The translations under genes and the position numbers were made by a program. This document shows positions 4,241-21,283 of a stretch of DNA of 44,362 bases, piece by piece (positions within the stretch are counted from its first letter, which is position 1; each line of letters begins with the position of its first letter). Below the pieces are notes generated by a model, which worked only from the letters and a program-made list of their open reading frames with translations, had not been told where the DNA came from and searched no databases. The stretch comes from Saprospiraceae bacterium (lineage in GTDB: Bacteria; Bacteroidota; Bacteroidia; Chitinophagales; Saprospiraceae). The stretch is taken from the NCBI GenBank assembly GCA_043747725.1, contig JAYTON010000669.1:1-44362 (forward strand), read 5' to 3'.

Positions 4241-4323
4241 GAGTAATTTGTAAATACATTTGCAAAAAACGCTTAATTTTACGTCAAAATTTTCAATTAT
4301 TGTTTTTTGCAGCACCCGACACA

Positions 4324-7300
4324 ATGTATTTACGCTACACAACACTCCTATATATTTGCCTGTGGTTTTTAAAACCACTTCAAGGACAAAATACCCAGCC
4401 TTATGCACACGCACAAGCGGAAACTTGGCTGCCCAAGCACCTCATTCGAGATATTTATCAAGATGCAAAAGGGGGGATTTGGATTTGTACAAATGCAGGT
4501 TTGTACAAATACAATTTACACGCACTTGAAAACATCAATTTGACTAAAAAAACAACGACCCAATTTTTAAATAATGCGACTTCAACCATAGCGGAAGACA
4601 GTTTTGGAAATATTTTAGTCGGAACGGAAAGCGGTTTGGGCGTTTTGGAAAACAACGGCAATTGCACTATTTTATCGAAAACAGATGAAACCATTAGTAA
4701 AATTAAGGTAGAAACATCGGGCGTAGTTTGGTGGATGACCCTGAATGGCAAATTATACAAAGCGCACCCCCTCAGTAAAAATCAATACAACGACGCCTTT
4801 TTAGTGTATGAAACGAGTAAAATTTTAGGAAAAGATACGGAAGTGAATACTTTTGACCTTTTGCCAACGGGCGAAATTGCCATAGGGTCAAATAAGGGAT
4901 TTTATTTATACAATCAAAAAACAGGTAGCCTTATCCCTTCAACAATAACCCAAAATATTACCACTATTTTCACCGATAAAAATCAAAATATATGGGTGGG
5001 TACAAGCAATAGCGGCTTGTTTTTAAAAGAAGAAAACACGACTTCTTTCCGTAAAATTGCTTTAACGGGTACAAATATCGAGCGCAATCAGCAAATCATT
5101 TCAATAAAAAACTTAGCTGAAACAAGCCTTTTAGTCACCACACCACAAAATATTTACCTTGTTTCTGAAAAAGATTTAAGCGTAAAATTGTTGAAAGAAA
5201 ATATATTTCCCAACCGAGAAAGTTATATCACCACCGCTTTTGCAGACCGCACGGCTAATATTTGGTTGGGCAGCCCCATTGGTTTGTATAAAATGAAAAA
5301 ACAGGGAGTTAAAGCCACCTTTTTTCCCATAGAAACGAAGGATTTTTTTCTCAATAATCAAATTCATCACCTGTACAGCGAGGGTAATTCCCTTTGGATA
5401 GGCACTTCTTCAGATGGCTTGTACCGAATGAATACCGCTACTTTGCAACAATCTAAAGCAGATATACCCCTTAAAACTATCAGGCGTATTCGTAAATCGC
5501 AACGGGGCGATTGGATTGTAGCAGGGAGCAGCAAAATAGGCATTTATACTGAGGGGGGTGGTATAAAAATGCTGCATGAAACGGTGGGAACAGCGATGGA
5601 TTTATTAGAAATTGCGGAAGGTGAGTGGTGGATTACGACGTGGACATCGGGTTTGACCCGCTTCTTTGAAACGCCTGCCGATTCTATTAAAAGCCCACAC
5701 ACAGCCATTTTTAATAAAGCCAATGCGTCTTTTAATAAAAATATTCACCCATTTTGCCTCATCAAAGACCGTGAACAAAATGTTTGGATAGGCACAAGGG
5801 GAAATGGGCTGTATAAAATAAATCTGCCCCAACAAACCATTCAACATTATGGAGGCGACACAAAAGGGCATATAGCGTCTAATCGCATTTTATGCCTTAA
5901 AGAAGACAGCAAGGGCAATATTTGGGTAGGCACTCGGGGCGATGGTTTGCTGTTATATCAAGCAAAAGCCGATGATTTCAAAATTTTTGATGCTAAAAAT
6001 GGCTTGATGTCTAATACCATTTGCGCTATCGAAGAAGGGCAATCGGGTAGTTTATGGCTATCCACTTTAAACGGTTTAGCAAAAATACGAGATATTTCGA
6101 TGCCTTTTCAAACCTTTGGCAGCGAGGCAGGTATTAACAGTCCCGAATTTCATTTCAATGCTTCGGCAAAAGACGCACAGGGCTATTTGTATTTTGGCAA
6201 TGTGGCGGGTATTTACCGCCTCAAAGATGTGGATAATATGGCAACCGCACAAGTCCCTTTTGTATGGACACAGTTTGACATTTTAAATGCCCAAAATACT
6301 GAGGGGGGTGTCAAAGAACGGTTAGTTGCACCGAATGAAGCGGGGAAAACGGTAGAATTGGCGCATAACCAAAACAGTTTTCGCATTGGATTTGCTTTGT
6401 TGGATTATACAACACCTGAAAAAAACCAATATGCGTATAGGCTGATTGGAAAAGATACGACTTGGCAATATATAGAAGGAGTACGCCCTGTGGTGGAATA
6501 TGTGGATTTGGCTACGGGCGATTATCTTTTTGAAGTACGCAGTGCCAACAGTTACGGGCAGTGGATGACGGCAACAGCGAGCCTTAAAATTGCCATTAAT
6601 CCTTCGTTTTGGTGGTCGAGGACGGCATTTTTCTTCTATTTTTTATTGATAGGTATATTGGCTATCACGGCTTATATCTTGTGGCAAAATTGGTTTAAAC
6701 TCAATAGACAGCTTCAAGAAGAACACGAAATAGCGCAAAAACAAACCCAGCAAATCGTGTTTTACACCGATTTATCACATGAAATTAAAAACCGTTTATC
6801 GCTCATTTTGGGTCCGTTGGAGCAAGCCTTACACGATAAAAAAGTGAATACGGCTGTGTTGGATAATCTCTATGACCAAGCTCTGCGGGTGAAAAAATTG
6901 ACCGACCAAATTATGAACATTCGTAAAGGCGAAAGTGGGATGTTTAATTTGAGCGTGACGGAGGAAAATATCAAATCTCGTTTGGAAAAACTGTATCGAG
7001 AAGCCCAACCTTTAGCCGTTTTAAAAAATATCCAGTTTGATTTTAACAGTCAAAAAGAAACTTTACGCGGGTGGTGCGATGAGGAATTATTAGAGATTAT
7101 TGTCCAAAATTTATTGAATAATGCGATAAAATACTGCAAAATTGGCGGAGAAGTAAGCCTAAAAATAGATGCTCAATATTTGGGGGGCATGGATTTGCCT
7201 TGTAAAACCGAAGTAGGAGAGGGCAACTATCTGATTTGCACAGTGCAAGATACAGGTGTGGGCATACCGCAAGCGGAAATTGACAAAGTGGTGCAACCGT

Positions 7301-8373
7301 TTTATCGAGCAGAAAATACCAAATTTAATCGGGAAGATAAAAGCGGAACGGGCATTGGCTTGGATTTGGTGGCTCGGTTGATTAATCTGCATCATGGCTG
7401 TTTGGATATTCGCAGCGAAGAAGGCATTTTTACAGCCGTAACTTTTTATTTACCAATTGATAAACTGCAATACAACATTTCGGAATTAAAACCCAGTATC
7501 GTTCACGCCCCCATTGTTTTGCCCGATAATAAACCGCATTTTGAAGAAAAGGAAGGTTTAATTCTCCCTCAAAATGACAATAATATTGGGGATACCCCCC
7601 CCTTGATGTCCCGACAAGGCGGAACAGTATCCAAGCCTATTTCAGGGCAAATTTTAGTCGTAGATGATAATCCCGAAATTTTAAAATATTTGAAAGAAAC
7701 GCTTGAAATGGATTTTACAGTTCATACAGCCGATGATGGGCAAGAGGCTTTGGCTGTCTTAAAAAAACAAGATATTGAATTGATAGTCAGCGATTTATCT
7801 ATGCCCAATATGGACGGTTTGACTTTATGCAGACATATTCGACAGGATAAAAATTGGGTAAATTTGCCTTTCGTGATTTTAACAGGGCGCAATTCGGAAG
7901 AACAAAAATTGGTTTGTTTTCAGAATGAAGTAGATGATTTTATTGAAAAACCATTTAGTCCCGAACTCTTGCGTTGGCGGGTAAAAAGCCTATTAAGACA
8001 AGCAAAAGGGAAACAAAAAAAGGTCGTCATTATAGAACCCAGAGAAGAAATTTATGAATCGGAAGACGAAAAATTCATTCAAAATATCGTGAATTTGATA
8101 GACCAAAACATTGATAAAGCGTTTTTAGATGTCGAGTTTTTAGCCAATAACCTCTATTTTAGTCGTGCTACCTTTTATCGCAAAATGGAGGAAGTAGTAG
8201 GGGAGTCCCCTTCCGTATTTATCCGAAAATATCGGCTCAAAAAAGCAGCACAGATGCTCAAATCGGGTCAGTTTATGGTGCATGAAGTGGCTTCAAAAAC
8301 GGGTTTTAGCAATCCTAAATATTTCTCAAAATGTTTTGAGAAGGAGTTTGGGGTGTTGCCTACGCAAGTTTGA
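4324..8373 (+). CDS. Hybrid two-component system (HTCS) sensor kinase/response regulator with AraC-type HTH
   Basis: ORF 4300..8373, with the start probably at Met 4324 (MYLRYTTLLYICLWFLKPLQGQ). The long N-terminus has propeller-type repeats (recurrent W[IV]GT..GL strings) followed by one TM segment (FFFYFLLIGILAITAYILW). Further strings are the H-box DLSHEIKNRL, ATPase boxes DTGVGIP and GTGIGL, a receiver domain (ILVVDDN...SDLSMPNMDG) and an AraC HTH (GFSNPKYFSKCFEKEFG). Confidence 0.9.
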   Translation: MYLRYTTLLYICLWFLKPLQGQNTQPYAHAQAETWLPKHLIRDIYQDAKGGIWICTNAGLYKYNLHALENINLTKKTTTQFLNNATSTIAEDSFGNILVGTESGLGVLENNGNCTILSKTDETISKIKVETSGVVWWMTLNGKLYKAHPLSKNQYNDAFLVYETSKILGKDTEVNTFDLLPTGEIAIGSNKGFYLYNQKTGSLIPSTITQNITTIFTDKNQNIWVGTSNSGLFLKEENTTSFRKIALTGTNIERNQQIISIKNLAETSLLVTTPQNIYLVSEKDLSVKLLKENIFPNRESYITTAFADRTANIWLGSPIGLYKMKKQGVKATFFPIETKDFFLNNQIHHLYSEGNSLWIGTSSDGLYRMNTATLQQSKADIPLKTIRRIRKSQRGDWIVAGSSKIGIYTEGGGIKMLHETVGTAMDLLEIAEGEWWITTWTSGLTRFFETPADSIKSPHTAIFNKANASFNKNIHPFCLIKDREQNVWIGTRGNGLYKINLPQQTIQHYGGDTKGHIASNRILCLKEDSKGNIWVGTRGDGLLLYQAKADDFKIFDAKNGLMSNTICAIEEGQSGSLWLSTLNGLAKIRDISMPFQTFGSEAGINSPEFHFNASAKDAQGYLYFGNVAGIYRLKDVDNMATAQVPFVWTQFDILNAQNTEGGVKERLVAPNEAGKTVELAHNQNSFRIGFALLDYTTPEKNQYAYRLIGKDTTWQYIEGVRPVVEYVDLATGDYLFEVRSANSYGQWMTATASLKIAINPSFWWSRTAFFFYFLLIGILAITAYILWQNWFKLNRQLQEEHEIAQKQTQQIVFYTDLSHEIKNRLSLILGPLEQALHDKKVNTAVLDNLYDQALRVKKLTDQIMNIRKGESGMFNLSVTEENIKSRLEKLYREAQPLAVLKNIQFDFNSQKETLRGWCDEELLEIIVQNLLNNAIKYCKIGGEVSLKIDAQYLGGMDLPCKTEVGEGNYLICTVQDTGVGIPQAEIDKVVQPFYRAENTKFNREDKSGTGIGLDLVARLINLHHGCLDIRSEEGIFTAVTFYLPIDKLQYNISELKPSIVHAPIVLPDNKPHFEEKEGLILPQNDNNIGDTPPLMSRQGGTVSKPISGQILVVDDNPEILKYLKETLEMDFTVHTADDGQEALAVLKKQDIELIVSDLSMPNMDGLTLCRHIRQDKNWVNLPFVILTGRNSEEQKLVCFQNEVDDFIEKPFSPELLRWRVKSLLRQAKGKQKKVVIIEPREEIYESEDEKFIQNIVNLIDQNIDKAFLDVEFLANNLYFSRATFYRKMEEVVGESPSVFIRKYRLKKAAQMLKSGQFMVHEVASKTGFSNPKYFSKCFEKEFGVLPTQV

Positions 8374-8384
8374 CCCCCTCAGTA
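8374..8384 (-). repeat. Intergenic copy of the 11-mer TACTGAGGGGG
   Basis: Exact CCCCCTCAGTA on the + strand, directly after the HTCS stop codon. The 17-mer ACCCCCTCAGTATTTTT is shared with 10051-10067. Confidence 0.95.
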
Positions 8385-8394
8385 TTTTTCAATA

Positions 8395-9960
8395 TCAAAC
8401 CCAGATGGCAAATATTTTTTTACCTTCCACCTCAAGCCATTCAGAGTGCCAGTTTTTGACTTCTGAATGGTCAAAAATCAGCAAATAACCTTCGGATAAA
8501 GATTGACTATTGAGATATTCGACTAATTGAATAAGCCCTTTCTCATGCGCTTTTTGACCTCGCCAAAGTTTGAGTTCCGCTACATATTTTTCAGCAAAAT
8601 AAGTAATAACGACATCTAATCGCTGTTCTTCCGAAATTTGCGGTTCTTTAAAATCATAACCCGAACCGTTGATGATGGGTTTTATAAAAGCTAAAAAGAC
8701 CAATCTGCCATTTTTTTCAAGAAAATCACGATCTTTTTTGCTGTACTCTTTTTTCATAAACGTTTGAAAACCTAATAAAACGGCTTCCATGTTGAGCGTT
8801 TGATTAGTATTTCTATAGCCCGAACCGATATTTTTATTTTCTGAAAGTTTGTCTTCTCTAATTTTATCAGACATATAATTCACAATAACCTCTGTATAAA
8901 TACGATTGTGAATTTTGATGCGCCCACCGCCATTTCCCGATACAAACATACCGTACAAAATACCCAAATTTGTTGTAGGGTTATGAACGTTAAAAGGAAC
9001 GAAATCACTTTCTATGGCAATATTATAAACGGCTCGATAGAGTTCTGGGTTATTCTCTAAGTTTTTAGTGAGCGTATCAAAATTCGTATTGCTCTCAGTT
9101 ACTAAGATTTTCACAGCATTTTCCAAATCCTTGTCCATCCATTCTTTTACTTGTTTTTGCGGTAAAAAATCTTCATCCAGCATTTTACACAACTTACTCA
9201 CTAAAAATGGATAGCCCGATGTGTAATAAAAAAGCCGTTCAGCTATAAACTGGGTATCCATTTTCACCCCTTTATCCGCAACATATTCATCGAGCATCGG
9301 CTTAATTTCAGCTACTTGCAAATTCATATCTACCTTAAATTCAGCCGCAATATTCCACGGAGAATTAAACTTTTGTTCTTCATTACCTCTAATTTTTACT
9401 TTCAAGGTTTTCACATCATGTACACCCGCCAAGACAACGGAATGAAATGTTGGAATTTCATCACGTTCCAAATACTTATTGCGTAACATGGCTAAAAAAC
9501 TGACAAACAATTGATTATTGGAACTTTTATCTACTTCATCTATTATCAAAACCACCTTTTTATCGGTTTGACTAATAAAATCGGTTATCATATCAGACAG
9601 TTTTTCCAAGTCTTTTACTTTTCTTGTTTTTTTGAACCAACCCAGCAATTCGGGAGAGTGAAATTTTGTATATTTTTCCATTATTCTTATAAAACCCGAG
9701 GAAAAGTGTGCCTCTTCTTCAAAAATAGCATCGCCAATACCTTCAAAACTGGTATTGAGGACGACATATTCACCCGTTTTTCGGAGGGCTTCGGCTAAGG
9801 AATAAAGCGTAGTCGTTTTTCCATATTGACGAGGGCGATTGATGATAAAGTATGCCCCTTTTTCCACCATGTGCTGTATCTGTTCCATTTTCTTGGAAAC
9901 ATCTGCCATATAGTGTAGCTTTGGAAAGCACCGCCCTGTTATAAAAAATTCTTTTGACAT
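8395..9960 (-). CDS. P-loop ATPase fused to a C-terminal PD-(D/E)XK nuclease-like domain (AAA-ATPase_like/PDDEXK_9-type architecture)
   Basis: 521-aa ORF. It has Walker A RPRQYGKTT and Walker B VVLIIDEVD. The C-terminal RLDVVITY...YVAELKLW matches a D...ExK nuclease core. It lies on the opposite strand between the HTCS and susC genes. Confidence 0.7.
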   Translation of the reverse strand: MSKEFFITGRCFPKLHYMADVSKKMEQIQHMVEKGAYFIINRPRQYGKTTTLYSLAEALRKTGEYVVLNTSFEGIGDAIFEEEAHFSSGFIRIMEKYTKFHSPELLGWFKKTRKVKDLEKLSDMITDFISQTDKKVVLIIDEVDKSSNNQLFVSFLAMLRNKYLERDEIPTFHSVVLAGVHDVKTLKVKIRGNEEQKFNSPWNIAAEFKVDMNLQVAEIKPMLDEYVADKGVKMDTQFIAERLFYYTSGYPFLVSKLCKMLDEDFLPQKQVKEWMDKDLENAVKILVTESNTNFDTLTKNLENNPELYRAVYNIAIESDFVPFNVHNPTTNLGILYGMFVSGNGGGRIKIHNRIYTEVIVNYMSDKIREDKLSENKNIGSGYRNTNQTLNMEAVLLGFQTFMKKEYSKKDRDFLEKNGRLVFLAFIKPIINGSGYDFKEPQISEEQRLDVVITYFAEKYVAELKLWRGQKAHEKGLIQLVEYLNSQSLSEGYLLIFDHSEVKNWHSEWLEVEGKKIFAIWV

Positions 9961-10051
9961 CTTATTTTTAAAAATTTAAGTGCAAATGTAGATTAAATAT
10001 GGGGAAAATGCGGGAAAAACCGAGTACATTATTCCATAGCTTTTATAAGCA

Positions 10052-10062
10052 CCCCCTCAGTA
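10052..10062 (-). repeat. Intergenic copy of the 11-mer TACTGAGGGGG
   Basis: Exact match, 92 nt beyond the start of the ATPase gene at 8395..9960. Confidence 0.95.
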
Positions 10063-10093
10063 TTTTTACTCAAATAATTAGATAAAGCTATTT

Positions 10094-10128
10094 TGAGACA
10101 TTTTTATACCCTTGTGAGACATTTTTAT
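10094..10128 (+). promoter_or_regulatory. Direct repeat TGAGACATTTTTAT x2, 21-nt phase, upstream of susC (candidate HTCS/AraC-type operator)
   Basis: Exact 14-mers lie at 10094-10107 and 10115-10128, about 80-110 nt upstream of the susC ATG. Confidence 0.4.
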
Positions 10129-10206: not shown

Positions 10207-13200
10207 ATGATGAAAAAAACTATACTTCTTTCCAATCAAAAGACATGGTTGGCGTGCGTACTTTTCCTTTTGTTCCAATTTGGGTTTACGGATACGCTCT
10301 TAGCCCAAAGTGGTAAGGTCGTATCTGGTACAGTGCTTGACCAAGACGGTAATCCTATTGCCAATGCACAAGTTTTTGTACCTCAAACCACTATCAAGAC
10401 AAAAACGAATGACAAAGGGAGTTACCTCCTCAATTTGCCTGCGAGTATCAATACTTTTGTCGTGACGGCAAAAGGCAAACAACGCCAACAGGTACAGGTA
10501 AATGACCGCACCACTATCCTTGTGCGGATGCAGCCTTTTAGCGGCAATACGGCAGAAGGCATGGACGATGACCTTAATAATAATGGCAAAAAAAAGAAAA
10601 AAGTGAAAATGCCCAAAGGTGAACGTGCCGTAGTGGGTGTTGTGGCTGATGAAAAAGGGCAACCGATTCCCTCTGCCTCTATTGTTCTTTCAGGTACGCA
10701 AACGGGTACAATTAGTGACTTTGAGGGTCGTTTTATGCTCACGATTCCCGCAGGGCGTGATTCTTTGACCGTTTCATTTGTCGGTTTTGAAACACAAGAT
10801 ATTGAAATCGGTGATAACGAGGCAAGTTTGACGGTTATAATGCGTGAAACCGTCAATAATTTGAATGAAGTGGTGGTTGTAGGCTATGGCTCACAAAAAC
10901 GGAGCAATATCACGGGAGCCGTTTCAGATGTGAATTTTAAAGATTTGGAAAATTTACCACAATCGTCTGTTATTAATATGCTTTCGGGGCGTATGGCGGG
11001 TGTTTCTATCGTTCAGCCCGGGGGCGAACCGGGGGCAGACCAAGGGGAAATTTTAGTACGGGGTGTTGGTACGTTGAATGATGCTGCACCCTTGGTGGTC
11101 ATTGACGGGGCGGTCTCGAATTTAACCACTATGAATAATTTAGCACCCACTGAAATTGCCAGTATAACGGTTTTGAAAGACGCTTCTTCGGCAGCTATTT
11201 ATGGTGCCCGTGGGGCAAATGGGGTTATCTTGGTAACGACCAAAGAACCACAAAAATCTCGTTTGAACATCAATGTCAATCTGCAAAACTCCTCACAACA
11301 AGCCACCTACTTGCCTCAATTTGTCAATTCATGGCAGTGGATGACTTTACACAATGAAGCAACGGGCGGCACGAATTACCCGCTTTATGCCATCGAAAAT
11401 GCTAAAAATGGTATCTTAAACGATACTTTCGCCAATACAGATTGGGTGAAAGAAACCTACCGCACAGGCTTTCTACGCAATGCCAATGTGTCGGTGAATG
11501 GGGGCAATAATAATGCGTCATTTCAAGGCTCTTTTGGCGTAGTTGACCAAGAAGGGGCTATGAAAGGATTTTCTTCACGGCGTTATAATTATCGCAGCAA
11601 TATCCGTTTGAAAGCCTCTGAAAATATAGATGTTGGTTTGAATTTTTTCGGATATTTACAAAGTTCCAACAGTCCTTTTGCTTCTTCGGCAACTGTTGTG
11701 AGCCGCATCAATCAAGCCTTTCCTATCACACCACTTAAATATGCGAATGGCAATTGGGGTGTAAACTACCCGGGTGCGCCTGCCAGTTTTCAAGCCCTTT
11801 CAGTCGTACAAAACCCTGTTTTGACCACCGAAATTGGGCGCAATGACCGCAAAACGCTCAATAATAATATGTTGGCATTTCTGGCATATCGCCCTGTCAA
11901 GGGTTTGTTATTGAGAGGGCAATTCAGTTATGCTACGGATAATACGACAGTAGAAGCATTTAATCCTACTTTCGATTATCGGGGTGTAAATCCGTTACAA
12001 ACGGGTATGCAAAATCAGAAAAATACCCTAATTAACAGCAGCAGCACAAGCCGTCAATTTCAATCGCAACTGACTGCAAATTATAATACCGTTTTTAACA
12101 ACAAACACGCTTTGGGTTTATTGGCGGGTTATGAATATACCGATTTTGAAGACACCGATTTTGAAGCGGAAGGGCGTGATTTACCAAGCAACGACCAACA
12201 AGTTTTAGGCAATGCCCTTAGTGATTTGCGGGTAGCAGGTGATAGAAACGCTTGGCGTGTGCAATCTTTCTTCGGGCGTATGAATTATTCTTTTGACAAT
12301 AAATACATATTGGAAGGCAATCTGCGGGTAGATGGCTCGTCTCGTTTTCCTGCCAATGAAAAATATGGCTATTTCCCGTCGTTCTCTGCGGGTTGGATAG
12401 TGTCGAATGAGCAATTTTTTACCCCCCTCAGTAAATTTATGAGTTTATTGAAATTTAGAGGCGGTTGGGGGATTGTCGGTAATGACCGCATTGGTAATTA
12501 TCCTTATCAGCAAGTGTATAGCACCCGTTCATTTTATCCGTTGGGTGATGTGTTGAATGTGGGTGTGTCGCAAAACCGTTTCAGCAACCCGAATATCCGT
12601 TGGGAAGAAACGGCTGTGACAAACGTGGGTATGGACGCTGCCTTTTGGGATAACCGCTTGTTTTTAAATGTGGACGTTTTCAATAAAGTAACCGATGGTA
12701 TTTTGTATCAATTGGCACTGCCTTCCTCTTTTGGGGGTATAACACCTGCCAATTTGAATGTGGCAAAGGTCTCAAACAAAGGCTATGAATTGAATTTGGA
12801 ATACAAAACCCAAGTGGCTAAAAAGGTTTTTTTAAATATTGGTGGCAATTTTACCTATATTAAAAACAATGTAGATAAATTGGAAACAAGGGATGCTGTG
12901 AATGGTAGTTTCATTTTGAGAGAAGGTTATCCTATCAATTCCTACTATTTGATGGCTTATCGAGGCATTTATCGAGATACAACAGAGTTTGAAAAGTACC
13001 CTATTTTTAATAATAATGCAAATACTCGGCGTGTGGGGGCATTGTATTATTACGATACCAATAACGATGGACAAGTGAATCTTGATGACCGCCAAATTTT
13101 AAATTCTTCCAATACACCTATCACTTATGGGGCAACTTTAGGCGTGTCTTTTAAAGGTTTAGACCTTAATGTTTTGGTACAAGGCGTGAAGGATAAATAC

Positions 13201-13596
13201 ATTTATCTCGGTGACAATGGCAATCGCCCTGGCAATGCGGGTAATACCAATTTCTGGAAAGAATGGTGGGACAATCGCTATGACCCAAAAGAAAATCCGA
13301 ATGGTACGTGGCCCGTTCTCAAACGCCAAAGCCCAGAGGCAAACCTCACTTCTTTCTTTTTAAGTGATGCCTCTTTCCTCCGCATTAGAAATATTGAATT
13401 GGGTTATTCACTGCCTTCTGCCACCATGAAAAAATGGGGTATGCGGACATTGCGGGTGTACTTATCGGGCAATAATCTTTTTACATTTAGCAAATTGATT
13501 AAACAAATTGACCCTGAAAGGGCAAATGGTTCATTAGGCAATTCGCAATATCCGCAATTGAAAACGGCAACGGTGGGGTTGAATCTTGGTTTTTAG
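10207..13596 (+). CDS. susC: SusC/RagA-type TonB-dependent outer-membrane transporter
   Basis: 1129 aa with a signal peptide and CarboxypepD_reg-like segments. The TonB-box/plug region reads NEVVVVGYGSQKRSNITGAVS. The SusC signature LKDASSAAIYGARGANGVILVTTK is present. The C-terminus ends ...VGLNLGF, and a SusD gene follows directly. Confidence 0.9.
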   Translation: MMKKTILLSNQKTWLACVLFLLFQFGFTDTLLAQSGKVVSGTVLDQDGNPIANAQVFVPQTTIKTKTNDKGSYLLNLPASINTFVVTAKGKQRQQVQVNDRTTILVRMQPFSGNTAEGMDDDLNNNGKKKKKVKMPKGERAVVGVVADEKGQPIPSASIVLSGTQTGTISDFEGRFMLTIPAGRDSLTVSFVGFETQDIEIGDNEASLTVIMRETVNNLNEVVVVGYGSQKRSNITGAVSDVNFKDLENLPQSSVINMLSGRMAGVSIVQPGGEPGADQGEILVRGVGTLNDAAPLVVIDGAVSNLTTMNNLAPTEIASITVLKDASSAAIYGARGANGVILVTTKEPQKSRLNINVNLQNSSQQATYLPQFVNSWQWMTLHNEATGGTNYPLYAIENAKNGILNDTFANTDWVKETYRTGFLRNANVSVNGGNNNASFQGSFGVVDQEGAMKGFSSRRYNYRSNIRLKASENIDVGLNFFGYLQSSNSPFASSATVVSRINQAFPITPLKYANGNWGVNYPGAPASFQALSVVQNPVLTTEIGRNDRKTLNNNMLAFLAYRPVKGLLLRGQFSYATDNTTVEAFNPTFDYRGVNPLQTGMQNQKNTLINSSSTSRQFQSQLTANYNTVFNNKHALGLLAGYEYTDFEDTDFEAEGRDLPSNDQQVLGNALSDLRVAGDRNAWRVQSFFGRMNYSFDNKYILEGNLRVDGSSRFPANEKYGYFPSFSAGWIVSNEQFFTPLSKFMSLLKFRGGWGIVGNDRIGNYPYQQVYSTRSFYPLGDVLNVGVSQNRFSNPNIRWEETAVTNVGMDAAFWDNRLFLNVDVFNKVTDGILYQLALPSSFGGITPANLNVAKVSNKGYELNLEYKTQVAKKVFLNIGGNFTYIKNNVDKLETRDAVNGSFILREGYPINSYYLMAYRGIYRDTTEFEKYPIFNNNANTRRVGALYYYDTNNDGQVNLDDRQILNSSNTPITYGATLGVSFKGLDLNVLVQGVKDKYIYLGDNGNRPGNAGNTNFWKEWWDNRYDPKENPNGTWPVLKRQSPEANLTSFFLSDASFLRIRNIELGYSLPSATMKKWGMRTLRVYLSGNNLFTFSKLIKQIDPERANGSLGNSQYPQLKTATVGLNLGF

Positions 13597-13598
13597 TA

Positions 13599-13609
13599 CC
13601 CCCTCAGTA
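13599..13609 (-). repeat. Intergenic copy of the 11-mer TACTGAGGGGG
   Basis: Exact match, 3 nt after the susC stop. Confidence 0.95.
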
Positions 13610-13654
13610 TTTTCACCATTTTAGACAATAAAAAGACAATAAAAATCGCATAAA

Positions 13655-15217
13655 ATGAAAAATATAAAATTCATCATATCCTTTTTTGCCCTGTTGATTG
13701 CAACATCTTGTGGCAAAGACCAATTGGAATTAACCAATCCTAACGACATTCAAGAATCTGAATTTTGGAAAACCGAACGACAAGCCCTTCAAGGTATTTT
13801 AGGAGTCTATGATGCTTTGCAAAGTGATGAAATCGGTGGTTTGCGCTACTACCAATTGGATGTTTTGACCGATAATATGGGGACAAATACCAATTCTGAA
13901 AGTTGGTTAGACATTCGCAATTTTGCTTTCAACAGCAGTACGGCAAGAGTCGTTAATATGTGGCGTGCCTTGTACAACGTGGTCAATCGAGCAAATTTGG
14001 CGATTGATAAAATCTCTCAAATGCCTTCAACAGCCATTAGCGATGCGGTAAAAACCCGTTTGATTGCCGAAGCGCAGTTTTTAAGAGCTTTTGCGTATCA
14101 CGATTTGACCATGATTTATCAAGGTGTACCGTTTTACACCAAACCCAATACTTCTACAAGTGAAGGTTTGCCAGCCACAAAAGGCAGTGAAATAGCCAAA
14201 GCAATGATTGAAGATTTGAAAAATACCGTCATGCCCAACTTGCCAACGATTTCCACAGATGGACGCATTACAAGAGGGGCAGCTACATTTTTATTGGGCA
14301 AATTTTATATGGCTTTGCGAGATTATCCAAACGCCATTACGACTTTAAAATCTTTAAAAACCGCCCCGTATTCTTATGCCTTATTCGCCGATTATGAAAA
14401 ACTTTTTACGCCCGAAGTGGAGTTCACGAATAGCGAGGTGATGTTTCAAGTCAATTTTATTGATAGTCCATTGGATAATGGTGGCAATTTCGCTATCAAA
14501 ATTGATACTTTAACTTCTCCTTCTGTTACACCTTTTAATGTGCCGCGCAATTCGTTTCAAATTACCAATAATTTGCGGGATTCTTACCTCTGCACCGATG
14601 GAAAACCTTATGCTGCAAACAGCACAATTTATGGTACAAAATCCACTTTGGCAAGCACAACCAACCATGCCCGCAATCGAGATAAGCGCATGAAAGGGGC
14701 TATGTTGTCCAATATTGATACGACTTTTGGCAGTAAAAAATATTGGAATTTTACGACTAATGCCATAGCCATTAAAAAATATTTCCACGTTTCGCCTATC
14801 GTTTACAATACCAATCCGCAGAACTATTACATGATGCGCTATGCTGATGCTTTGTTGATGTTGGCAGAAGCTGAAATAGAAGTCAATGCAGCCGACCCCG
14901 ATATTTTTGCCAATTTAAAACTGATTCGTGACCGTGCAGGTGTCGCCATGTTTGACCAAACCGCATGGAACGCTCTTACCCAAGCCCAAAAACGCACCGT
15001 CATTCGAGATGAACGCCGTTGGGAATTTGCCTTTGAACACGTTCGCTTTTTTGACCTCCGCCGTTGGGGTTTGGATTTTACCAAAACGACTTTGAGAGCG
15101 ATAAATACCGCTATTCCTGCCAATACGCCCGATATTATGTTTGTGCAGTGGTCTTATCCATTGCCCGAATTGGATAATAATGCGGCTTTGAAAAAGGGGG
15201 GGAATCCAGGGTATTAG
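13655..15217 (+). CDS. susD: SusD/RagB-family glycan-binding lipoprotein
   Basis: Lipoprotein signal LLIATSCGKD. SusD-type strings are RALYNVVNRANL, AEAQFLRAFAYHDL, MMRYADALLMLAEAE and RDERRWEFAFEHVRFFDLRRWG. It lies immediately downstream of susC. Confidence 0.85.
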   Translation: MKNIKFIISFFALLIATSCGKDQLELTNPNDIQESEFWKTERQALQGILGVYDALQSDEIGGLRYYQLDVLTDNMGTNTNSESWLDIRNFAFNSSTARVVNMWRALYNVVNRANLAIDKISQMPSTAISDAVKTRLIAEAQFLRAFAYHDLTMIYQGVPFYTKPNTSTSEGLPATKGSEIAKAMIEDLKNTVMPNLPTISTDGRITRGAATFLLGKFYMALRDYPNAITTLKSLKTAPYSYALFADYEKLFTPEVEFTNSEVMFQVNFIDSPLDNGGNFAIKIDTLTSPSVTPFNVPRNSFQITNNLRDSYLCTDGKPYAANSTIYGTKSTLASTTNHARNRDKRMKGAMLSNIDTTFGSKKYWNFTTNAIAIKKYFHVSPIVYNTNPQNYYMMRYADALLMLAEAEIEVNAADPDIFANLKLIRDRAGVAMFDQTAWNALTQAQKRTVIRDERRWEFAFEHVRFFDLRRWGLDFTKTTLRAINTAIPANTPDIMFVQWSYPLPELDNNAALKKGGNPGY

Positions 15218-15268
15218 CGTTTGGCAATAATTCCATATTCAAATACTCAAAACATTATGAGTGAGATA

Positions 15269-15440
15269 TATACATGAAACGGGGTAAAATCCCGTTTTAA
15301 CGATGACTGAATAACGAATATCGATTAACGAATTTTGAATGTCGAAGTCGTGCACGTCGGCGTCGTACACTTCAAAATTCTACATTCGTTAATCGATATT
15401 CGTTATTAAAAAAGCGGGATTTTACCCCGTTTCATGTATA
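15269..15440. repeat. 172-bp near-full-length palindromic element (nested long hairpin)
   Basis: The outer arms 15269-15294 and 15415-15440 are 26/26 complementary. The inner arms 15310-15333 and 15384-15407 are 24/24 complementary. The apex is GC-rich and imperfect. Confidence 0.85.
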
Positions 15441-15483
15441 ACTTTCATTAATCGTGAACACAGGTACTGAATTATTACGTTTT

Positions 15484-15641
15484 ATAAGCCCGTAGGGCTG
15501 GCACCGTTTATAGGAAAGTGAGTAGTGTTTTTTTAAGGTACGTAGTACCGACACCGTAAAAAAACGGTGTCGGTGCTACGCACCTTTACGATAATTTTTG
15601 ATTACTTGTTCTATAAACGGTGCCAGCCCTAACGGGCTTAT
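15484..15641. repeat. 158-bp near-full-length palindromic element, unrelated in sequence to the first
   Basis: The outer arms 15484-15513 and 15611-15641 are complementary with a 1-nt bulge. The inner arms 15534-15556 and 15564-15586 are complementary with 2 mismatches around an A7 loop. Confidence 0.85.
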
Positions 15642-15719
15642 TAAAAACGCACCCAAATTTTAACTTTCAAGGCTTTTCAACCCATTATTCGCATTTATTG
15701 TTTAATTAAAAAAAACGAT

Positions 15720-17195
15720 ATGATTTATAAAATTATCCCTTTATTTTTTCTTTTGTTTTTGGGTAACATTAACCTAAGCAGCCAAACTCGAAAACCCAAT
15801 ATCATTTACATTCTCGCCGATGACTTGGGGTATGGTGATGTCGGTTGCTATGGTCAAAAAACAATCAGAACACCGCATCTCGATACCTTAGCCGCAAACG
15901 GTATGCGTTTCACCCAACACTATACAGGTGCGCCCGTCTGTGCGCCAAGTCGTGCTATTTTAATGACAGGACGTGACGCAGGGCATTGTCGGGTGCGGGG
16001 TAATTATGAAGCAGGCAAACACGGCTTTGGGGCAGGCTTGGAATTGCGAGACGAAGACGTAACCATCGGTGAGGTATTGAAAAAAAGAGGCTATGCTACG
16101 GCTGTTATCGGCAAATGGGGCATGGGCGTAGAAGGCACAACAGGCGAACCCACTAAACAAGGTTTTGACTATCATTTTGGTTTTTTAAATCAAGGACATG
16201 CCCATTATCAATTCCCTGATTATTTGTTCCGAAATGGCAAGCGGGTGGACATTGTAGAAAATCAAAACGATGGACGTAAAGCCTATTCCAATAATCTTTT
16301 TACCGATGAGGCAAAGCAATATATTGAGCAAAATAAAACCCAACCTTTCTTTTTATATTTGGCTTACACCACGCCACACGCTGAATTATTAGTGCCTGAT
16401 GATACAATTTTTCAAAGTTATAAAGGCAAATTTGATGAAAAACCCTATATTTTGAATAAACAAGGCGGCAACAGCAAGCAAGACAATTATGGTGCATACA
16501 ATTCACAAACGCACCCAATGGCAGCCTATGCAGCGAGTATTACGCATTTGGATAATTGTATCGGTCAATTGATTGCCCATTTGAAAGAAAGAGGTTTGTA
16601 TGAAAACACCCTAATCATTTTCAGTAGCGACAATGGGGCTGCAAAAGAAGGTGGTGCCAATCCCGATTATTTCAAAAGTTCGGGCATTTACAGAGGTCGG
16701 AAAAGAGATATTTATGAGGGCGGTATTCGTGTGCCGATGATAGTAGGTGGCTGGTCAAAAGTGCAAAAAGGGGTAGAAAGCAAGCATATTTCTTCTTTTC
16801 AAGACATAATGACAACCTTAGCGGAGGTGAGTGGTAAAAAGCTCGAAAAGGCGCAAAATACTGAGGGGGTCTCTTTTTATCCCACTTTGATAGGAAAATT
16901 GAAAAAACAAAAAAAACATGATTATTTGTATTGGGAGTTTCACGAAAATAAAACTTCTGACCAAGCCATTTTATTAAACAATTGGAAAGGCATCAGGCAC
17001 GACCCAAACGGCAAATTAGAACTCTACAACCTCAACAACGACCCCTCCGAAACAACGGATGTTGCCGATAAAAACCCCTCCATAGTACAACAAATCGAAA
17101 CATTGATGAAAACTGCCAGAGAACCACACGACATTTGGCAACTTAAAACAGCCATTAACAACAATTCTTCACAATCAAAGACAGATAAAAAATGA
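15720..17195 (+). CDS. S1-family sulfatase (formylglycine-dependent)
   Basis: Signal peptide. Strings are PNIIYILADDLGYGD, the formylglycine motif CAPSRAILMTGR, and FSSDNG. Confidence 0.9.
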   Translation: MIYKIIPLFFLLFLGNINLSSQTRKPNIIYILADDLGYGDVGCYGQKTIRTPHLDTLAANGMRFTQHYTGAPVCAPSRAILMTGRDAGHCRVRGNYEAGKHGFGAGLELRDEDVTIGEVLKKRGYATAVIGKWGMGVEGTTGEPTKQGFDYHFGFLNQGHAHYQFPDYLFRNGKRVDIVENQNDGRKAYSNNLFTDEAKQYIEQNKTQPFFLYLAYTTPHAELLVPDDTIFQSYKGKFDEKPYILNKQGGNSKQDNYGAYNSQTHPMAAYAASITHLDNCIGQLIAHLKERGLYENTLIIFSSDNGAAKEGGANPDYFKSSGIYRGRKRDIYEGGIRVPMIVGGWSKVQKGVESKHISSFQDIMTTLAEVSGKKLEKAQNTEGVSFYPTLIGKLKKQKKHDYLYWEFHENKTSDQAILLNNWKGIRHDPNGKLELYNLNNDPSETTDVADKNPSIVQQIETLMKTAREPHDIWQLKTAINNNSSQSKTDKK

Positions 17196-17202
17196 AAAGG
17201 AA

Positions 17203-19098
17203 ATGAAGAAATTATTATACATAATTATCGGTTTTTTATGTGCGGGTCAATCCGCAAAAACCCAAACTACAAAACCCAATATCGTCTGGATAACCATTGA
17301 AGATACGTCTCCAGATTTTATTGGTTGTTATGGCAATAGACAGGTGAAAACACCCAATATTGATGCTCTCGCTACTGAGGGGGTGCGTTTTACCCATGCG
17401 TACAGTACCAATGTGGTGTGTTCACCCTCTCGTCACACCATTATAACGGGTGTTCGGACGGCAGTGGACGGTTGTGGCAATCACCGAAGCCAATTTAAAG
17501 TGCCTTCCGATGTGAAAGGTTTTGCATCGTATTTGAAAAATGCGGGTTATTTCACATCCAATAATGCAAAAACGGATTACAATTTGGCAAATGCCCGAAA
17601 TTTTATACAAAACAATTGGACAGAACAAGGCGGCAAAGCGGATTTCACGAAACGCAAATCGAAAGACCAATCCTTTTTTTCAATTTTCAATTTCAATGAG
17701 TCGCACCAAAGTCGTACCGTTGGCAACAGCACCGCTTGGTATGAAAAAGAGATTTTGGGCAGATTGAAAAAGGAAGAAATTATCAAAGCGGAAGGTTTGG
17801 ATGTGCCACCTTTTTACAAGCAAAATGACAATAATCGTGAAAATATTGCCCGATTGTACAATTGCCTTCGGGTGACGGACAATGAAGTTGGGCGCATCGT
17901 CAAAATGCTGAAAGACAACGGTGATTGGGATAATACAATCGTCTTTTTCTACGCTGACCACGGACAAGGTATGCCTCGTTTCAAAACAAATGCCTCTCGT
18001 TTGGGTCATCAAGTGCCGTTTGTTGTGCGTTTTCCCGAAAAATGGCAGCATTTAGCACCCGCTAAAAAGGGCGAAACGATAGACGAACTCGTGACTTTTG
18101 AAGACCTCGCACCGACTATTTTAAGCCTTGTGGGTATCACCAAACCCGATTATATGAAAGGCAGAATTTTTCTTGGCGCTCAAAAAGAAATCACCGACAA
18201 TATCTTTTGGGGCTGCCGTGACAATACCGACGAAGTGATTGACATGGGCAGAACCCTTATCAAAGGCGACTATGTGTATGAGCGCATTTATTACTCGCAT
18301 CACCCCGTTTTGCAACAACAAGCCTATTGGAATCGCTCGCCTATGCTTATTCAAATGCGAAATGACTATCAAAACAAAGCACTGAATACCTTAGAAGCGT
18401 CTATTTTCACCCCAAGAACAGCCGAATATCTTTTCAATCGAAAAACGGATAAATGGGAAACCCTCAATTTAGCGCATGATAAACAATATGAAAAAATATT
18501 GCTCGAAATGCGCCAAATCAACCAAGAACACATTATAAAACACCAAGATTTAGGCTTTTTACCCGAAAATGTCTTAGCTCAAATTGACCAAACTCAAACA
18601 GTAGGCGAGTGGAAGGTGAAAAATTATGATGTGAAAAAATACTTAGATGTCGCTGAAATGGTTGGCATGAGCAAGGCTCATTTAACCAAACAAATGAATT
18701 TACTAACAGATAAAGACAGTGTGGTGCGCTATTGGGCAGTTATCGGTTTGAGAAATCAAAACAGTAAAGATTTGAATAAAAAGCAACTCCTGAAAGTCTA
18801 TCAAAATGAACAATCTGAAATGGTGAAAATTGAATTGGCTGATTTATTTCTCCATCTTTTTAAAGATAAAACCCAATTACAATATTTGGTAAATACAATT
18901 ATACAAACGTCAAACGGTTATGCTGCCCGACAAGCGAGTATGCGTTTAGCCAATTACCCCGATTTGCCCGAAAATATTGTTGAACAAATCCGAAAAATGC
19001 GTAAGGAATTGGCAGAACGACATAAAGGCGTTGGGTATTCGTTTACTGCCAGTTTAAGCACCATAATAAAAGCAAAAGTGGAAGATGATAGTAATTAA
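17203..19098 (+). CDS. S1-family sulfatase with a roughly 200-aa C-terminal helical-repeat (HEAT-like) extension
   Basis: Signal peptide. Strings are PNIVWITIEDTS, the motif CSPSRHTIITG, and YADHGQG. The C-terminal region (DSVVRYWAVIGL...) looks like HEAT/PBS-lyase-type repeats. Confidence 0.85.
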   Translation: MKKLLYIIIGFLCAGQSAKTQTTKPNIVWITIEDTSPDFIGCYGNRQVKTPNIDALATEGVRFTHAYSTNVVCSPSRHTIITGVRTAVDGCGNHRSQFKVPSDVKGFASYLKNAGYFTSNNAKTDYNLANARNFIQNNWTEQGGKADFTKRKSKDQSFFSIFNFNESHQSRTVGNSTAWYEKEILGRLKKEEIIKAEGLDVPPFYKQNDNNRENIARLYNCLRVTDNEVGRIVKMLKDNGDWDNTIVFFYADHGQGMPRFKTNASRLGHQVPFVVRFPEKWQHLAPAKKGETIDELVTFEDLAPTILSLVGITKPDYMKGRIFLGAQKEITDNIFWGCRDNTDEVIDMGRTLIKGDYVYERIYYSHHPVLQQQAYWNRSPMLIQMRNDYQNKALNTLEASIFTPRTAEYLFNRKTDKWETLNLAHDKQYEKILLEMRQINQEHIIKHQDLGFLPENVLAQIDQTQTVGEWKVKNYDVKKYLDVAEMVGMSKAHLTKQMNLLTDKDSVVRYWAVIGLRNQNSKDLNKKQLLKVYQNEQSEMVKIELADLFLHLFKDKTQLQYLVNTIIQTSNGYAARQASMRLANYPDLPENIVEQIRKMRKELAERHKGVGYSFTASLSTIIKAKVEDDSN

Positions 19099-19140: not shown

Positions 19141-19217
19141 TACAGCCACTAATTGCACGAATTTTCACGAATCGTTATATCAAGAATTAGTGAAAATTCG
19201 TGCAATTAGTGGCTGTA
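19141..19217. repeat. Perfect 28-bp inverted repeat with a 21-nt spacer between convergent genes
   Basis: TACAGCCACTAATTGCACGAATTTTCAC (19141-19168) is exactly complementary to 19190-19217. There is no flanking T-tract. Confidence 0.8.
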
Positions 19218-20084: not shown

Positions 20085-20215
20085 GAATTGAAAAATTAGT
20101 CCTTTTTATCCACTATAAATTTTTTTACTAAAAAATGAGTTCGCAGATTAAAGCTATCATTAAATACCATTTAAGGGCAAATATAAAGAATAAGTCTTTA
20201 TATTTCTGTTTTTTT

Positions 20216-20243
20216 TCTGTATTAATCTTTGTATTTTCTGTAT
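20216..20243 (+). promoter_or_regulatory. TTCTGTATT direct repeats (21-nt phase) upstream of parA, candidate operator/centromere
   Basis: TCTGTAT lies at 20216-20222 and 20237-20243. The same 7-mer recurs in every spacer of the par/rep module. Confidence 0.35.
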
Positions 20244-20249
20244 TTGTTT

Positions 20250-20257
20250 TATATTTG
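20250..20257 (+). promoter_or_regulatory. Bacteroidota -7 promoter box (TAnnTTTG) for parA
   Basis: TATATTTG lies 28 nt upstream of ATG 20285. Confidence 0.4.
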
Positions 20258-20284
20258 CATTCTAATCAATCATATATCAATAAC

Positions 20285-20932: not shown

Positions 20933-21028
20933 TCTGTATTCTTCTGTTTTATTTCTTTATAAATAAAGATAAATTCCTTATTTTATTCACCCCTCAGTAT
21001 TTTATTAAAAATTTAAGCAAAAGTTATA

Positions 21029-21283
21029 ATGAAAAGTTTAAAAGATACATTAGCCAAAAAAAGAGAATTGAGCCTTGCTGAAAAAGAAGCATTAGTCGAA
21101 AAAATTCACGCTTCTGAAACACCTGAAAACATTGAAACAAATACGAAAAATGGTAAAAATCTCCATCGACTAACGTTAGATTTACCACCGTGGTTAGTTG
21201 AGAAAATACGGGAAGAAACAGAGCGCAATGGTCAAACAATGCGGGGGTTGATTTTGACTATGTTATTGGAGCGATTTAAATAA
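21029..21283 (+). CDS. Small ribbon-helix-helix-like protein (ParG/CopG-type partition or copy-control partner candidate)
   Basis: 84 aa, starting 97 nt downstream of parA. The C-terminal LHRLTLDLPPWLVEKIREETERNGQTMRGLILTMLLERF fits a beta-strand/helix/helix RHH pattern. Confidence 0.5.
   Translation: MKSLKDTLAKKRELSLAEKEALVEKIHASETPENIETNTKNGKNLHRLTLDLPPWLVEKIREETERNGQTMRGLILTMLLERFK

What the first reader, a model, noticed from the sequence alone, without database searches (positions are those of the whole stretch)
8373..10067. ATPase-nuclease gene between HTCS and susC is bracketed by direct copies of the motif (cassette-like insertion)
The opposite-strand ATPase/PD-(D/E)XK gene (8395..9960) interrupts the usual HTCS-susC adjacency. 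It is flanked by the identical 17-mer ACCCCCTCAGTATTTTT at 8373-8389 and 10051-10067 in direct orientation, and it has no copy inside. The second ATPase gene shows the same arrangement (separate finding). This looks like motif-delimited cassette exchange, analogous to the minimal mobile elements of Neisseria that sit between conserved genes. It could also be a site-specific insertion that duplicates or targets the motif.
Basis: inference. Interest (0 to 1): 0.65.

Follow-up and report, generated by a model that had tools for sequence, protein, structure and literature searches.

The report
Inserted ATPase gene, coincidental flanking repeats
An accessory ATPase-nuclease gene really was inserted between a sugar-sensing regulator and its transporter gene, but the identical 17-base words on either side are two of many copies of a word that sits in about 40% of this genome's gene gaps, so they do not mark a mobile cassette.

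Summary
Observation confirmed. ACCCCCTCAGTATTTTT is exact and direct at 8373-8389 and 10051-10067. The identity stops at 17 nt, and no copy lies inside the ATPase gene (8395-9960, minus strand).

Insertion supported. Two relatives with the orthologous PUL (L020 and L145, SusC 81-82% identical) have HTCS directly followed by SusC across a 117-118 nt spacer. The window carries about 1.72 kb extra (about 8368-10090), is low in GC, and replaces the last 5 HTCS codons.

Motif-delimited cassette not supported.
- Both empty sites lack the motif.
- The word occurs 22-25 times in 44 kb, in 10 of 26 intergenic regions.
- SusC and GH43 are bracketed in the same way. Five genes are bracketed against 3.5 expected (P=0.19).
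- Strand order is random.
- The closest ATPase homologue (80%) has no flanking copy.
- A different ATPase at the same site in L015 has inverted copies.
- No recombinase lies nearby.

The word itself, [A/C]CCCCCTCAGTATTT[T], is specific to a Saprospiraceae clade and has no conserved flanks. It is kept at orthologous spacers and builds up inside genes by point mutation, mostly in one reading frame (x-N-T-E-G). This resembles DNA uptake sequences, which is the more interesting lead, but it is untested.

The parts
8373..8389 (+). Motif copy 1 (ACCCCCTCAGTATTTTT). Its first base is the A of the HTCS stop codon TGA. It nearly fills the 21-nt gap between the convergent HTCS and ATPase genes.
   Evidence: Copies abutting a stop codon in the sense direction are a general pattern: 10 of 33 copies that follow a co-oriented gene lie 0-3 nt from its stop.
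8395..9960 (-). Accessory gene of 521 aa. It has an N-terminal P-loop ATPase (Walker A GKTT, Walker B LIIDEVD) and a C-terminal PD-(D/E)XK-like region (D..ELK). It has no PADLOC, NCBIfam or PDB relative.
   Evidence: GC is 35.6% against 39-42% in the neighbours. The family is very large, with more than 7000 hits at E<1e-80.
8368..10090 (.). Segment present in the window but absent from the orthologous HTCS-SusC junction of L020 and L145. It contains both motif copies and the ATPase gene, and it replaces about 21 nt (the last 5 HTCS codons, the stop and 3 nt).
   Evidence: alignments A2 and A3
10051..10067 (+). Motif copy 2. It lies 91 nt upstream of the ATPase start and 140 nt upstream of the SusC start. 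Homology to the empty sites resumes 23 nt to its right.
10091..10128 (+). Two direct repeats, TTTTGAGACATTTTTAT and TTGTGAGACATTTTTAT, in a 21-nt register. They are conserved in L020 and L145. This is a candidate operator for the AraC-type HTCS and marks the first ancestral sequence after the insert.
   Evidence: The operator function is inferred.
4300..8373 (+). Hybrid two-component regulator (HTCS). Its C-terminus reads ...PTQV*, where the relatives have ...PTQFLQQN*.
10207..13596 (+). SusC-type transporter, the first gene of a SusC/SusD/sulfatase operon. It is itself bracketed by direct motif copies (10051 and 13598).

Best explanation
A lineage-specific accessory gene (a P-loop ATPase fused to a PD-(D/E)XK-like nuclease domain) was acquired horizontally. 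It landed in the short spacer between the HTCS regulator and the SusC operon of a sulfated-glycan PUL. The event replaced the last 5 codons of HTCS, which points to illegitimate or flank-homology recombination and not to a site-specific mechanism.

The two identical 17-mers are not the ends of this insert in any mechanistic sense. They are two copies of a 15-16 nt word, [A/C]CCCCCTCAGTATTT[T], that saturates the genomes of one Saprospiraceae clade. It occurs about 0.5 times per kb, and about 3 times per kb in intergenic DNA. The word has no conserved flanks and is preserved at orthologous spacers while the surrounding sequence diverges. It arises in place by point mutation, including inside genes, where it is tolerated mostly in one frame (x-N-T-E-G).

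The accumulation pattern is the one known from DNA uptake sequences: a DNA-level drive or selection on the word itself. The bracket around the ATPase is therefore the coincidence expected when about 40% of intergenic regions hold a copy.

Shown: the insertion, the motif census, the empty sites without a motif, and the in-place evolution. Inferred: the route of acquisition and the function of the word.
For: - Empty sites. L020 (SusC 81%, SusD 80%, sulfatases 82%, HTCS 65% identical) and L145 (SusC 82%) have HTCS followed by a 117-118 nt spacer and then SusC. Neither spacer holds the ATPase or the motif, although L020 carries 9 motif hits in 15 kb.
- Boundaries. Homology breaks at about 8368 and resumes at about 10090.
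- Composition. The ATPase and the other accessory genes are low in GC.
- Census. There are 22 hits to the 17-mer (up to 3 mismatches) and 25 to its 13-nt core (up to 1 mismatch). Ten of 26 intergenic regions are occupied. Five genes are bracketed, including SusC and GH43, against 3.5 expected (P=0.19).
- Logo. Only positions -2 to +13 are conserved across 107 instances.
- Clade distribution. The word is present in L002, L003, L005-L008, L014, L015, L020 and L142. It is absent from L001, L004, L016-L019, L021, L143 and L144.
- Spacer conservation. A copy follows the SusC stop codon in the window, L014 and L020, while the rest of that spacer has diverged.
- Point-mutational convergence. In the sulfatase, TEGV is encoded ACTGAGGGGGTC in the motif clade and ACGGAAGGTATT outside it. 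Three further SusC and HTCS sites show graded approach to the word.
- Frame bias. 23 of 28 antisense intragenic copies lie in one frame.
- ATPase homologues sit in unrelated contexts with no consistent flanking copies.
- No integrase or transposase is found in the 44 kb window.
Against: - The left edge of the extra segment falls within about 3 nt of the 5' end of motif copy 1.
- A 65%-identical ATPase homologue in L006 also sits convergent to a non-orthologous HTCS. That HTCS stop codon likewise abuts a motif copy, and a second direct copy lies upstream of the ATPase.
- The second ATPase in the window (33519-34952) is also bracketed by direct copies.
- The empty-site relatives are different species (about 81% amino-acid identity), so a copy could have been lost there.
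- The sample is one 44 kb window plus about 180 kb of relatives, not whole genomes.
- The uptake-sequence reading of the word rests on sequence statistics only.
Confidence: 0.7

Rival explanations
1. The word is a recombination site, and genes lying between two direct copies are exchanged or inserted as cassettes, either by site-specific recombination or by an insertion that duplicates or targets the word.
For: - Exact direct copies flank the ATPase.
- The left junction coincides with the motif start within about 3 nt.
- L006 shows the same geometry around a homologous ATPase.
- The PDC-S27 ATPase at 33519-34952 is also bracketed by direct copies.
- L015 has a different ATPase at the same site with copies on both sides.
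Against: - The empty sites in L020 and L145 have no copy.
- The right junction lies 23 nt beyond copy 2.
- The insertion deleted about 21 nt and produced no clean duplication.
- The L015 copies are inverted.
- The closest homologue, L142, and also L005 and L007, lack flanking copies.
- Core genes are bracketed too, and the number of bracketed genes is not above expectation.
- The word arises by point mutation inside conserved ORFs.
- No recombinase gene lies in the window.
Confidence: 0.1
2. Exchange of the MME type with the word acting as an uptake tag. The ATPase segment, with both of its copies, came from a motif-bearing relative by natural transformation and was integrated through homology or microhomology in HTCS and the SusC leader. 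The word promoted uptake but was not the crossover site.
For: - The orthologous SusC-upstream site has three states: ATPase A, ATPase B and empty.
- No recombinase is present.
- The word has the statistics of an uptake sequence.
- An inverted pair forms a 22-bp hairpin between convergent genes, as described for Neisseria uptake sequences.
Against: - Competence and uptake bias are untested. To my knowledge no uptake sequence has been described in Bacteroidota, and two text searches found nothing.
- The left flank is not conserved in L015, which has GH43 in place of HTCS.
- Copy 1 could equally have evolved in place after the insertion.
Confidence: 0.15
3. The word is a strand-specific element of gene 3' ends, such as a transcript-end or RNA-protein binding signal. 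Copy 1 then belongs functionally to HTCS, and copy 2 is a leader element of SusC. On this reading neither relates to the ATPase.
For: - Ten of 33 copies that follow a co-oriented gene lie 0-3 nt from its stop codon. These include HTCS, SusC, SSF and DUF5017 in the window, SusC in L014 and L020, and HTCS in L006.
- In intergenic regions between co-directional genes, 19 copies are sense and 9 antisense (my count from the table).
- All four copies in divergent regions of the window point towards the downstream gene.
Against: - A copy sits inside the SusC-SusD operon junction, where termination is not expected.
- Nine antisense copies lie between co-directional genes.
- The antisense bias inside genes is explained by peptide tolerance, through the NTEG frame.
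- The single copy has no hairpin, and there is no Rfam match.
- No RNA data are available.
Confidence: 0.05

Closest known systems
DNA uptake sequences (DUS of Neisseriaceae, USS of Pasteurellaceae)
   Same: - A short asymmetric word at about 0.5 copies per kb on both strands.
- Shared by related species and absent from more distant ones.
- Enriched in intergenic DNA.
- Occasional inverted pairs form terminator-like hairpins.
- Accumulates by point mutation at homologous positions.
- Inside genes it is confined to the reading frames that code tolerable peptides.
   Basis: compared with my general knowledge of DUS and USS.
   Different: - The phylum is Bacteroidota, where I know of no described uptake sequence.
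- The word is longer, at 15-16 specified bases.
- It has a strong preference for the position immediately after stop codons.
- Neither uptake bias nor competence genes were tested.
Neisseria minimal mobile elements (MMEs)
   Same: Different gene content sits between conserved genes in related genomes. The SusC-upstream site is empty, holds ATPase A, or holds ATPase B. No dedicated recombinase is present.
   Different: MMEs are defined among strains of one species with both flanking genes conserved. Here the comparisons are between species, and the left flank differs in L015. MMEs are not defined by flanking repeats either, so the analogy does not support a role for the motif.
Bacteroidota AAA-ATPase_like / PD-(D/E)XK proteins (Pfam PF09820 with PF08011, AAA_35)
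   Same: N-terminal P-loop domain with Pfam scores above the cut-offs, a C-terminal nuclease-like D..ExK region, a very large patchy family with tandem paralogues, and occurrence in defence islands.
   Different: The C-terminal nuclease match is below Pfam's cut-off. There is no PADLOC or NCBIfam model hit. The function of the family is unknown.
REP/BIME elements, MITEs, and Neisseria dRS3/NIME repeats
   Same: Abundant short intergenic repeats that often lie next to variable genes.
   Different: There is no palindrome, no terminal inverted repeats and no conserved internal or flanking sequence. Copies arise inside ORFs by substitution and not by insertion.

Membership tests
Site-specific insertion element with target duplication | The empty site in relatives carries exactly one copy of the repeat | tested here: not met
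   The L020 and L145 HTCS-SusC spacers (117-118 nt) contain no copy.
Site-specific insertion element with target duplication | The repeat is specific to the ends of the element | tested here: not met
   There are 22-25 copies in 44 kb, in 10 of 26 intergenic regions and in many ORFs.
Site-specific insertion element with target duplication | A recombinase, integrase or transposase is encoded in or next to the element | tested here: not met
   Pfam scans of all 27 long ORFs (80 aa or more) taken as genes found no such domain.
Neisseria-type minimal mobile element | The same pair of conserved flanking genes holds different cassettes in different genomes | tested here: inconclusive
   The SusC flank is conserved with three states: the window, L015, and L020/L145. 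The left flank is HTCS in the window, L020 and L145, but GH43 in L015.
Neisseria-type minimal mobile element | Exchange by natural transformation and homologous recombination | not testable with these tools
   This needs an isolate or population-level recombination data.
DNA uptake sequence (DUS/USS type) | Genome-wide excess of one short word on both strands, at roughly one copy per kb | tested here: met
   22 hits against 0.16 expected in 44 kb. 108 hits in 227 kb of clade DNA. Strand order is random (11 runs against 11.9 expected, my count).
DNA uptake sequence (DUS/USS type) | Shared by related species and absent from more distant relatives | tested here: met
   Present in at least 6 Saprospiraceae species MAGs and in the closest PUL orthologues. 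Absent from L001, L004, L016-L019 and L021.
DNA uptake sequence (DUS/USS type) | Copies arise in place by point mutation, with reading-frame bias inside genes | tested here: met
   Searches show codon-level convergence at 4 homologous sites. One search shows 23 of 28 antisense copies in the NTEG frame.
DNA uptake sequence (DUS/USS type) | Preferential uptake of DNA that carries the word by competent cells, and presence of competence machinery | not testable with these tools
   No isolate is available. The whole genome is not held, and the window contains no competence genes.
REP / MITE-type dispersed repeat | A palindromic or TIR-bounded unit with conserved sequence beyond a short core | tested here: not met
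   Information content falls to zero outside 15-16 nt in 107 instances.
AAA-ATPase_like + PD-(D/E)XK protein family | N-terminal P-loop ATPase domain above the Pfam cut-off | tested here: met
   AAA_35 scores 40.3 bits (cut-off 27) and AAA-ATPase_like scores 40.2 bits (cut-off 26.1).
AAA-ATPase_like + PD-(D/E)XK protein family | C-terminal PD-(D/E)XK nuclease domain | tested here: inconclusive
   PDDEXK_3 scores 20.6 bits against a cut-off of 22. The motif RLDVV...AELK is visible in the translation.

The most novel reading that the evidence does not exclude
The 15-16 nt word is a DNA-uptake-type signal of a Saprospiraceae clade, or another word spread by DNA-level drive. It would be the first such signal in Bacteroidota. 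On this reading, accessory genes such as this ATPase are swapped at tolerated sites by transformation and flank recombination, in the manner of Neisseria MMEs, with the word tagging 'self-clade' DNA. A less likely but not excluded variant is that the word also supplies the microhomology at which such segments are joined, since the left junction lies within about 3 nt of a copy.
Probability: 0.2. Interest if true: 0.75.

Novelty: new member of a known kind. Interest (0 to 1): 0.3.

Why it matters
The cassette claim itself does not hold up. This is an ordinary lineage-specific insertion of an accessory gene from a huge Bacteroidota family of unknown function, placed at a spot where insertion is tolerated, between a regulator and its operon. 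Establishing this prevents a false 'motif-bounded mobile cassette' class from being propagated to the other bracketed genes in this genome.

What would matter is the word itself. A clade-wide 15-16-mer that is maintained in spacers and is written into coding sequences by directional substitution calls for a DNA-level mechanism, such as uptake bias or a very abundant DNA-binding protein. No such mechanism is described for this phylum as far as I know.

Tried and rejected
- Plasmid database search with the locus: no match.
- Laying contigs of four weakly matching metagenome runs on the locus gave only short, diverged fragments and no informative junction.
- Laying contigs of the four runs that hold this strain showed no ATPase-less joint. 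The many 'joints' at 6293, 8389, 10047, 13613 and 16856 are 20-nt cross-matches of other motif-bearing contigs, not structural variants.
- All seven contigs that encode the identical ATPase have the same arrangement.
Most hits were single matches, many probably chance hits in unrelated contigs, and only about 21 loci were usable.
- No RNA-seq run holds the locus.
- Rfam at gathering threshold: nothing in the window.
- The consensus terminator and promoter scan around the locus was no better than shuffles.
- PDB sequence search for the ATPase: nothing.
- NCBIfam found nothing for the ATPase, and PADLOC gave only one weak hit (PDC-S54, E=0.0013).
- Literature: the motif string appears only in unrelated primer lists, and no paper combines uptake sequences with Bacteroidetes.
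- SusC-upstream DNA of L014 and L015 is too diverged to align with the window, so junctions could not be mapped there.
- CRISPR origin considered after seeing five regularly spaced copies in L037. Rejected, because the whole 67-nt unit repeats, so it is a tandem array.
- Bacteroidetes -7 promoter box (TAnnTTTG) considered. Rejected, because the base after TATTT(T) varies and the orientation is often wrong for a promoter.
Full report
**1. Observation**

The 17-mer ACCCCCTCAGTATTTTT is exact at 8373-8389 and 10051-10067, both on the + strand. The identity ends at the 17th base on both sides. Between the copies lies one ORF, 8395-9960 on the minus strand (521 aa), with no copy inside.
- Pfam assigns the ORF to AAA_35 and AAA-ATPase_like, both above their cut-offs.
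- The translation shows Walker A (GKTT), Walker B (LIIDEVD) and a C-terminal D..ELK motif.
- The nuclease region has a sub-threshold PDDEXK_3 match.
- The flanking genes are a hybrid two-component regulator (HTCS, 4300-8373) and a SusC/SusD/two-sulfatase operon (10207-19098).

The description is correct.

**2. Is the bracket more than chance?**

The word is dispersed.
- There are 22 matches with up to 3 mismatches in 44 kb, against 0.16 expected.
- Searching the 13-nt core with up to 1 mismatch gives 25 hits. Twelve lie in 3.9 kb of intergenic DNA and 13 in about 40 kb of coding DNA.
- Ten of 26 intergenic regions hold a copy.
- Five genes have copies in both flanking regions: the ATPase, SusC, hyp137, GH43 and the second ATPase (PDC-S27). 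Shuffling gives 3.5 on average, P=0.19.
- Strand order along the window gives 11 runs against 11.9 expected (my count), so a direct pair has a chance of about one half.
- Core PUL genes (SusC, GH43) are bracketed like the ATPase.
- Other accessory genes are not: AbiLi/AbiLii and SoFic have a copy on one side only, and the BroN-ParA-Rep3 module has none at either outer edge.

The bracket is what the motif density predicts.

**3. Is the ATPase an insertion?**

Yes.
- The SusC orthologues L020 (81%) and L145 (82%) have HTCS, then a 117-118 nt spacer, then SusC, with no ATPase.
- More distant orthologues L017-L019 (SusC 61%, HTCS 47%) also have the two genes adjacent.
- Alignments place the breaks at about 8368 and about 10090.
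- On the left, the window HTCS ends ...PTQV*, where L020 and L145 end ...PTQFLQQN*. About 21 nt were therefore replaced by about 1.72 kb.
- On the right, homology resumes at two direct repeats, TTTTGAGACATTTTTAT and TTGTGAGACATTTTTAT (10091-10128). These are conserved in L020 and L145 and are probably the HTCS operator.
- The ATPase has GC 35.6% and GC3 33.7%. Its neighbours have GC of 39-42%. The other defence-like genes in the window are also low in GC.
- All near-identical strains found carry the gene.

**4. Does the motif delimit the insert?**

The evidence says no.
- Both empty sites lack any copy, although L020's genome is rich in the word, with 9 hits in 15 kb.
- The right junction lies 23 nt past copy 2.
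- The event deleted sequence and produced no duplication.
- In L015 (SusC 78%), a different ATPase of the same superfamily (25% identical) occupies the same position divergent from SusC. GH43 lies on its other side, and its motif copies are inverted.
- Among homologues of the window ATPase in motif-bearing genomes, only L006 repeats the direct bracket. L142 (80% identical, the closest), L005 and L007 have no adjacent copies, and L002, L003 and L008 have a copy on one side only.
- There is no recombinase in the window.

The left junction coincides with the 5' end of copy 1 within about 3 nt. L006 shows the same geometry of HTCS stop, motif and convergent ATPase next to a non-orthologous HTCS. 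Both are also explained by the general habit of the word to sit directly after stop codons (section 5).

**5. What the word is**

- *Extent.* A logo of 107 instances shows conservation only for [A/C]CCCCCTCAGTATTT[T]. Nothing outside is conserved.
- *Distribution.* It occurs in several Saprospiraceae species-level MAGs and in the closest PUL relatives. It is absent from more distant ones.
- *Intergenic enrichment.* In 227 kb of pooled clade DNA, 56% of 108 copies are intergenic, while intergenic DNA makes up 17.6%.
- *Position.* Ten of 33 copies that follow a co-oriented gene lie 0-3 nt from its stop codon.
- *Spacer conservation.* The SusC-SusD spacer keeps a copy right after the stop in the window, L014 and L020, while the rest of the spacer has diverged. 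Motif-less relatives have a 27-nt spacer.
- *Codon-level convergence.* In the sulfatase, the conserved peptide TEG(V/I) is encoded ACTGAGGGGGTC in the motif clade and ACGGAAGGTATT outside it. Three SusC sites and one HTCS site show graded, lineage-specific convergence that includes amino-acid changes and rare AGG and GGG codons.
- *Frame bias.* Of 28 antisense intragenic copies, 23 use one frame, coding x-N-T-E-G. This explains the antisense bias inside genes without invoking transcription.
- *Hairpin.* An inverted pair at 27941-27993 forms a perfect 22-bp stem between convergent genes (ΔG -41.5 kcal/mol, z = -9.3).
- *Array.* A 67-nt tandem array carries the word in L037.

These are the statistical hallmarks of DNA uptake sequences. 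That comparison rests on my general knowledge of DUS and USS. I found no literature on this word or on uptake sequences in Bacteroidetes. Uptake itself is untested. An abundant DNA-binding protein or a 3'-end RNA signal remain alternatives.

**6. The gene**

- The family is very large, with more than 7000 hits at E<1e-80.
- It shows tandem paralogues (L144) and occurs in a defence island next to AbiEi and a type I R-M system (L143).
- It has no PADLOC, NCBIfam or PDB relative.
- A defence-like or selfish role is plausible but unproven.

**7. Verdict**

The insertion is real. The motif-delimited cassette is not supported. The interesting object is the clade-wide word, not this bracket.

Noticed in passing
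window 10091-10107 and 10112-10128: Direct repeats TTTTGAGACATTTTTAT and TTGTGAGACATTTTTAT in a 21-nt register upstream of SusC. They are conserved in the empty-site relatives L020 and L145 and are a candidate operator of the AraC-type HTCS.
   Followed up: partly
window 8359-8373, compared with L020 5130-5160 and L145 85-115: The HTCS in the window ends ...PTQV*, while its orthologues end ...PTQFLQQN*. The insertion replaced the last five codons of the regulator's HTH domain.
   Followed up: yes
window-wide (for example 395, 6292, 16854, 22775, 28396) and relatives: Intragenic motif copies are mostly antisense and in one reading frame, encoding x-N-T-E-G-(V/G), in unrelated proteins (23 of 28). 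Homologous sites in motif-less relatives code similar peptides with different codons, so the DNA word is being written into genes by substitution.
   Followed up: yes
window 8373, 13598, 35060(-), 42030(-); L014 3653; L020 8691; L006 6697(-): Motif copies sit 0-3 nt after stop codons in the sense orientation far more often than uniform placement would give (10 of 33). The reason is unknown.
   Followed up: partly
window 27941-27993: An inverted pair of motif copies around a GC-rich core forms a perfect 22-bp hairpin (ΔG -41.5 kcal/mol, z = -9.3) between the convergent genes hyp137 and GH43. It looks like a bidirectional terminator.
   Followed up: yes
window 19239-23437: A low-GC plasmid-like module sits between PUL genes: BRO-N protein (PADLOC PDC-S13), ParA, a small protein with weak BrnA-antitoxin similarity, and a Rep3-type replication initiator. 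The contig may be a plasmid or chromid, or it may carry an integrated plasmid.
   Followed up: no
window 19141-19172 / 19186-19217: A 32-nt, 97% complementary inverted repeat lies about 40 nt after the Sulf2 stop codon. Homology to L020 already ends at that stop codon. The repeat sits at the left edge of the plasmid-like module.
   Followed up: partly
window 29193-31171, 33519-34952, 40697-41872: Defence-like genes are scattered singly among glycan-utilisation genes: AbiLi/AbiLii (AAA_21 + RloB), a PDC-S27 ATPase (ATPase_2 + DUF234) and SoFic. All but SoFic (GC 42%) are low in GC.
   Followed up: partly
L015 1280-2794: In a relative with the orthologous SusC (78%), a different AAA_35/PD-(D/E)XK ATPase (25% identical to the window's) occupies the same position divergent from SusC. 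GH43 replaces HTCS on its far side.
   Followed up: yes
L037 385-664: A tandem array of about 4 units of 67 nt in a metagenome contig. Each unit starts with the motif. It is not a CRISPR array, because the 'spacers' repeat too.
   Followed up: partly
L006 2358-8079: In a fructan-type PUL of another Saprospiraceae MAG, a 65% homologue of the ATPase is again placed convergent to an HTCS. That HTCS also ends ...QV*, and a motif copy directly follows its stop codon.
   Followed up: partly
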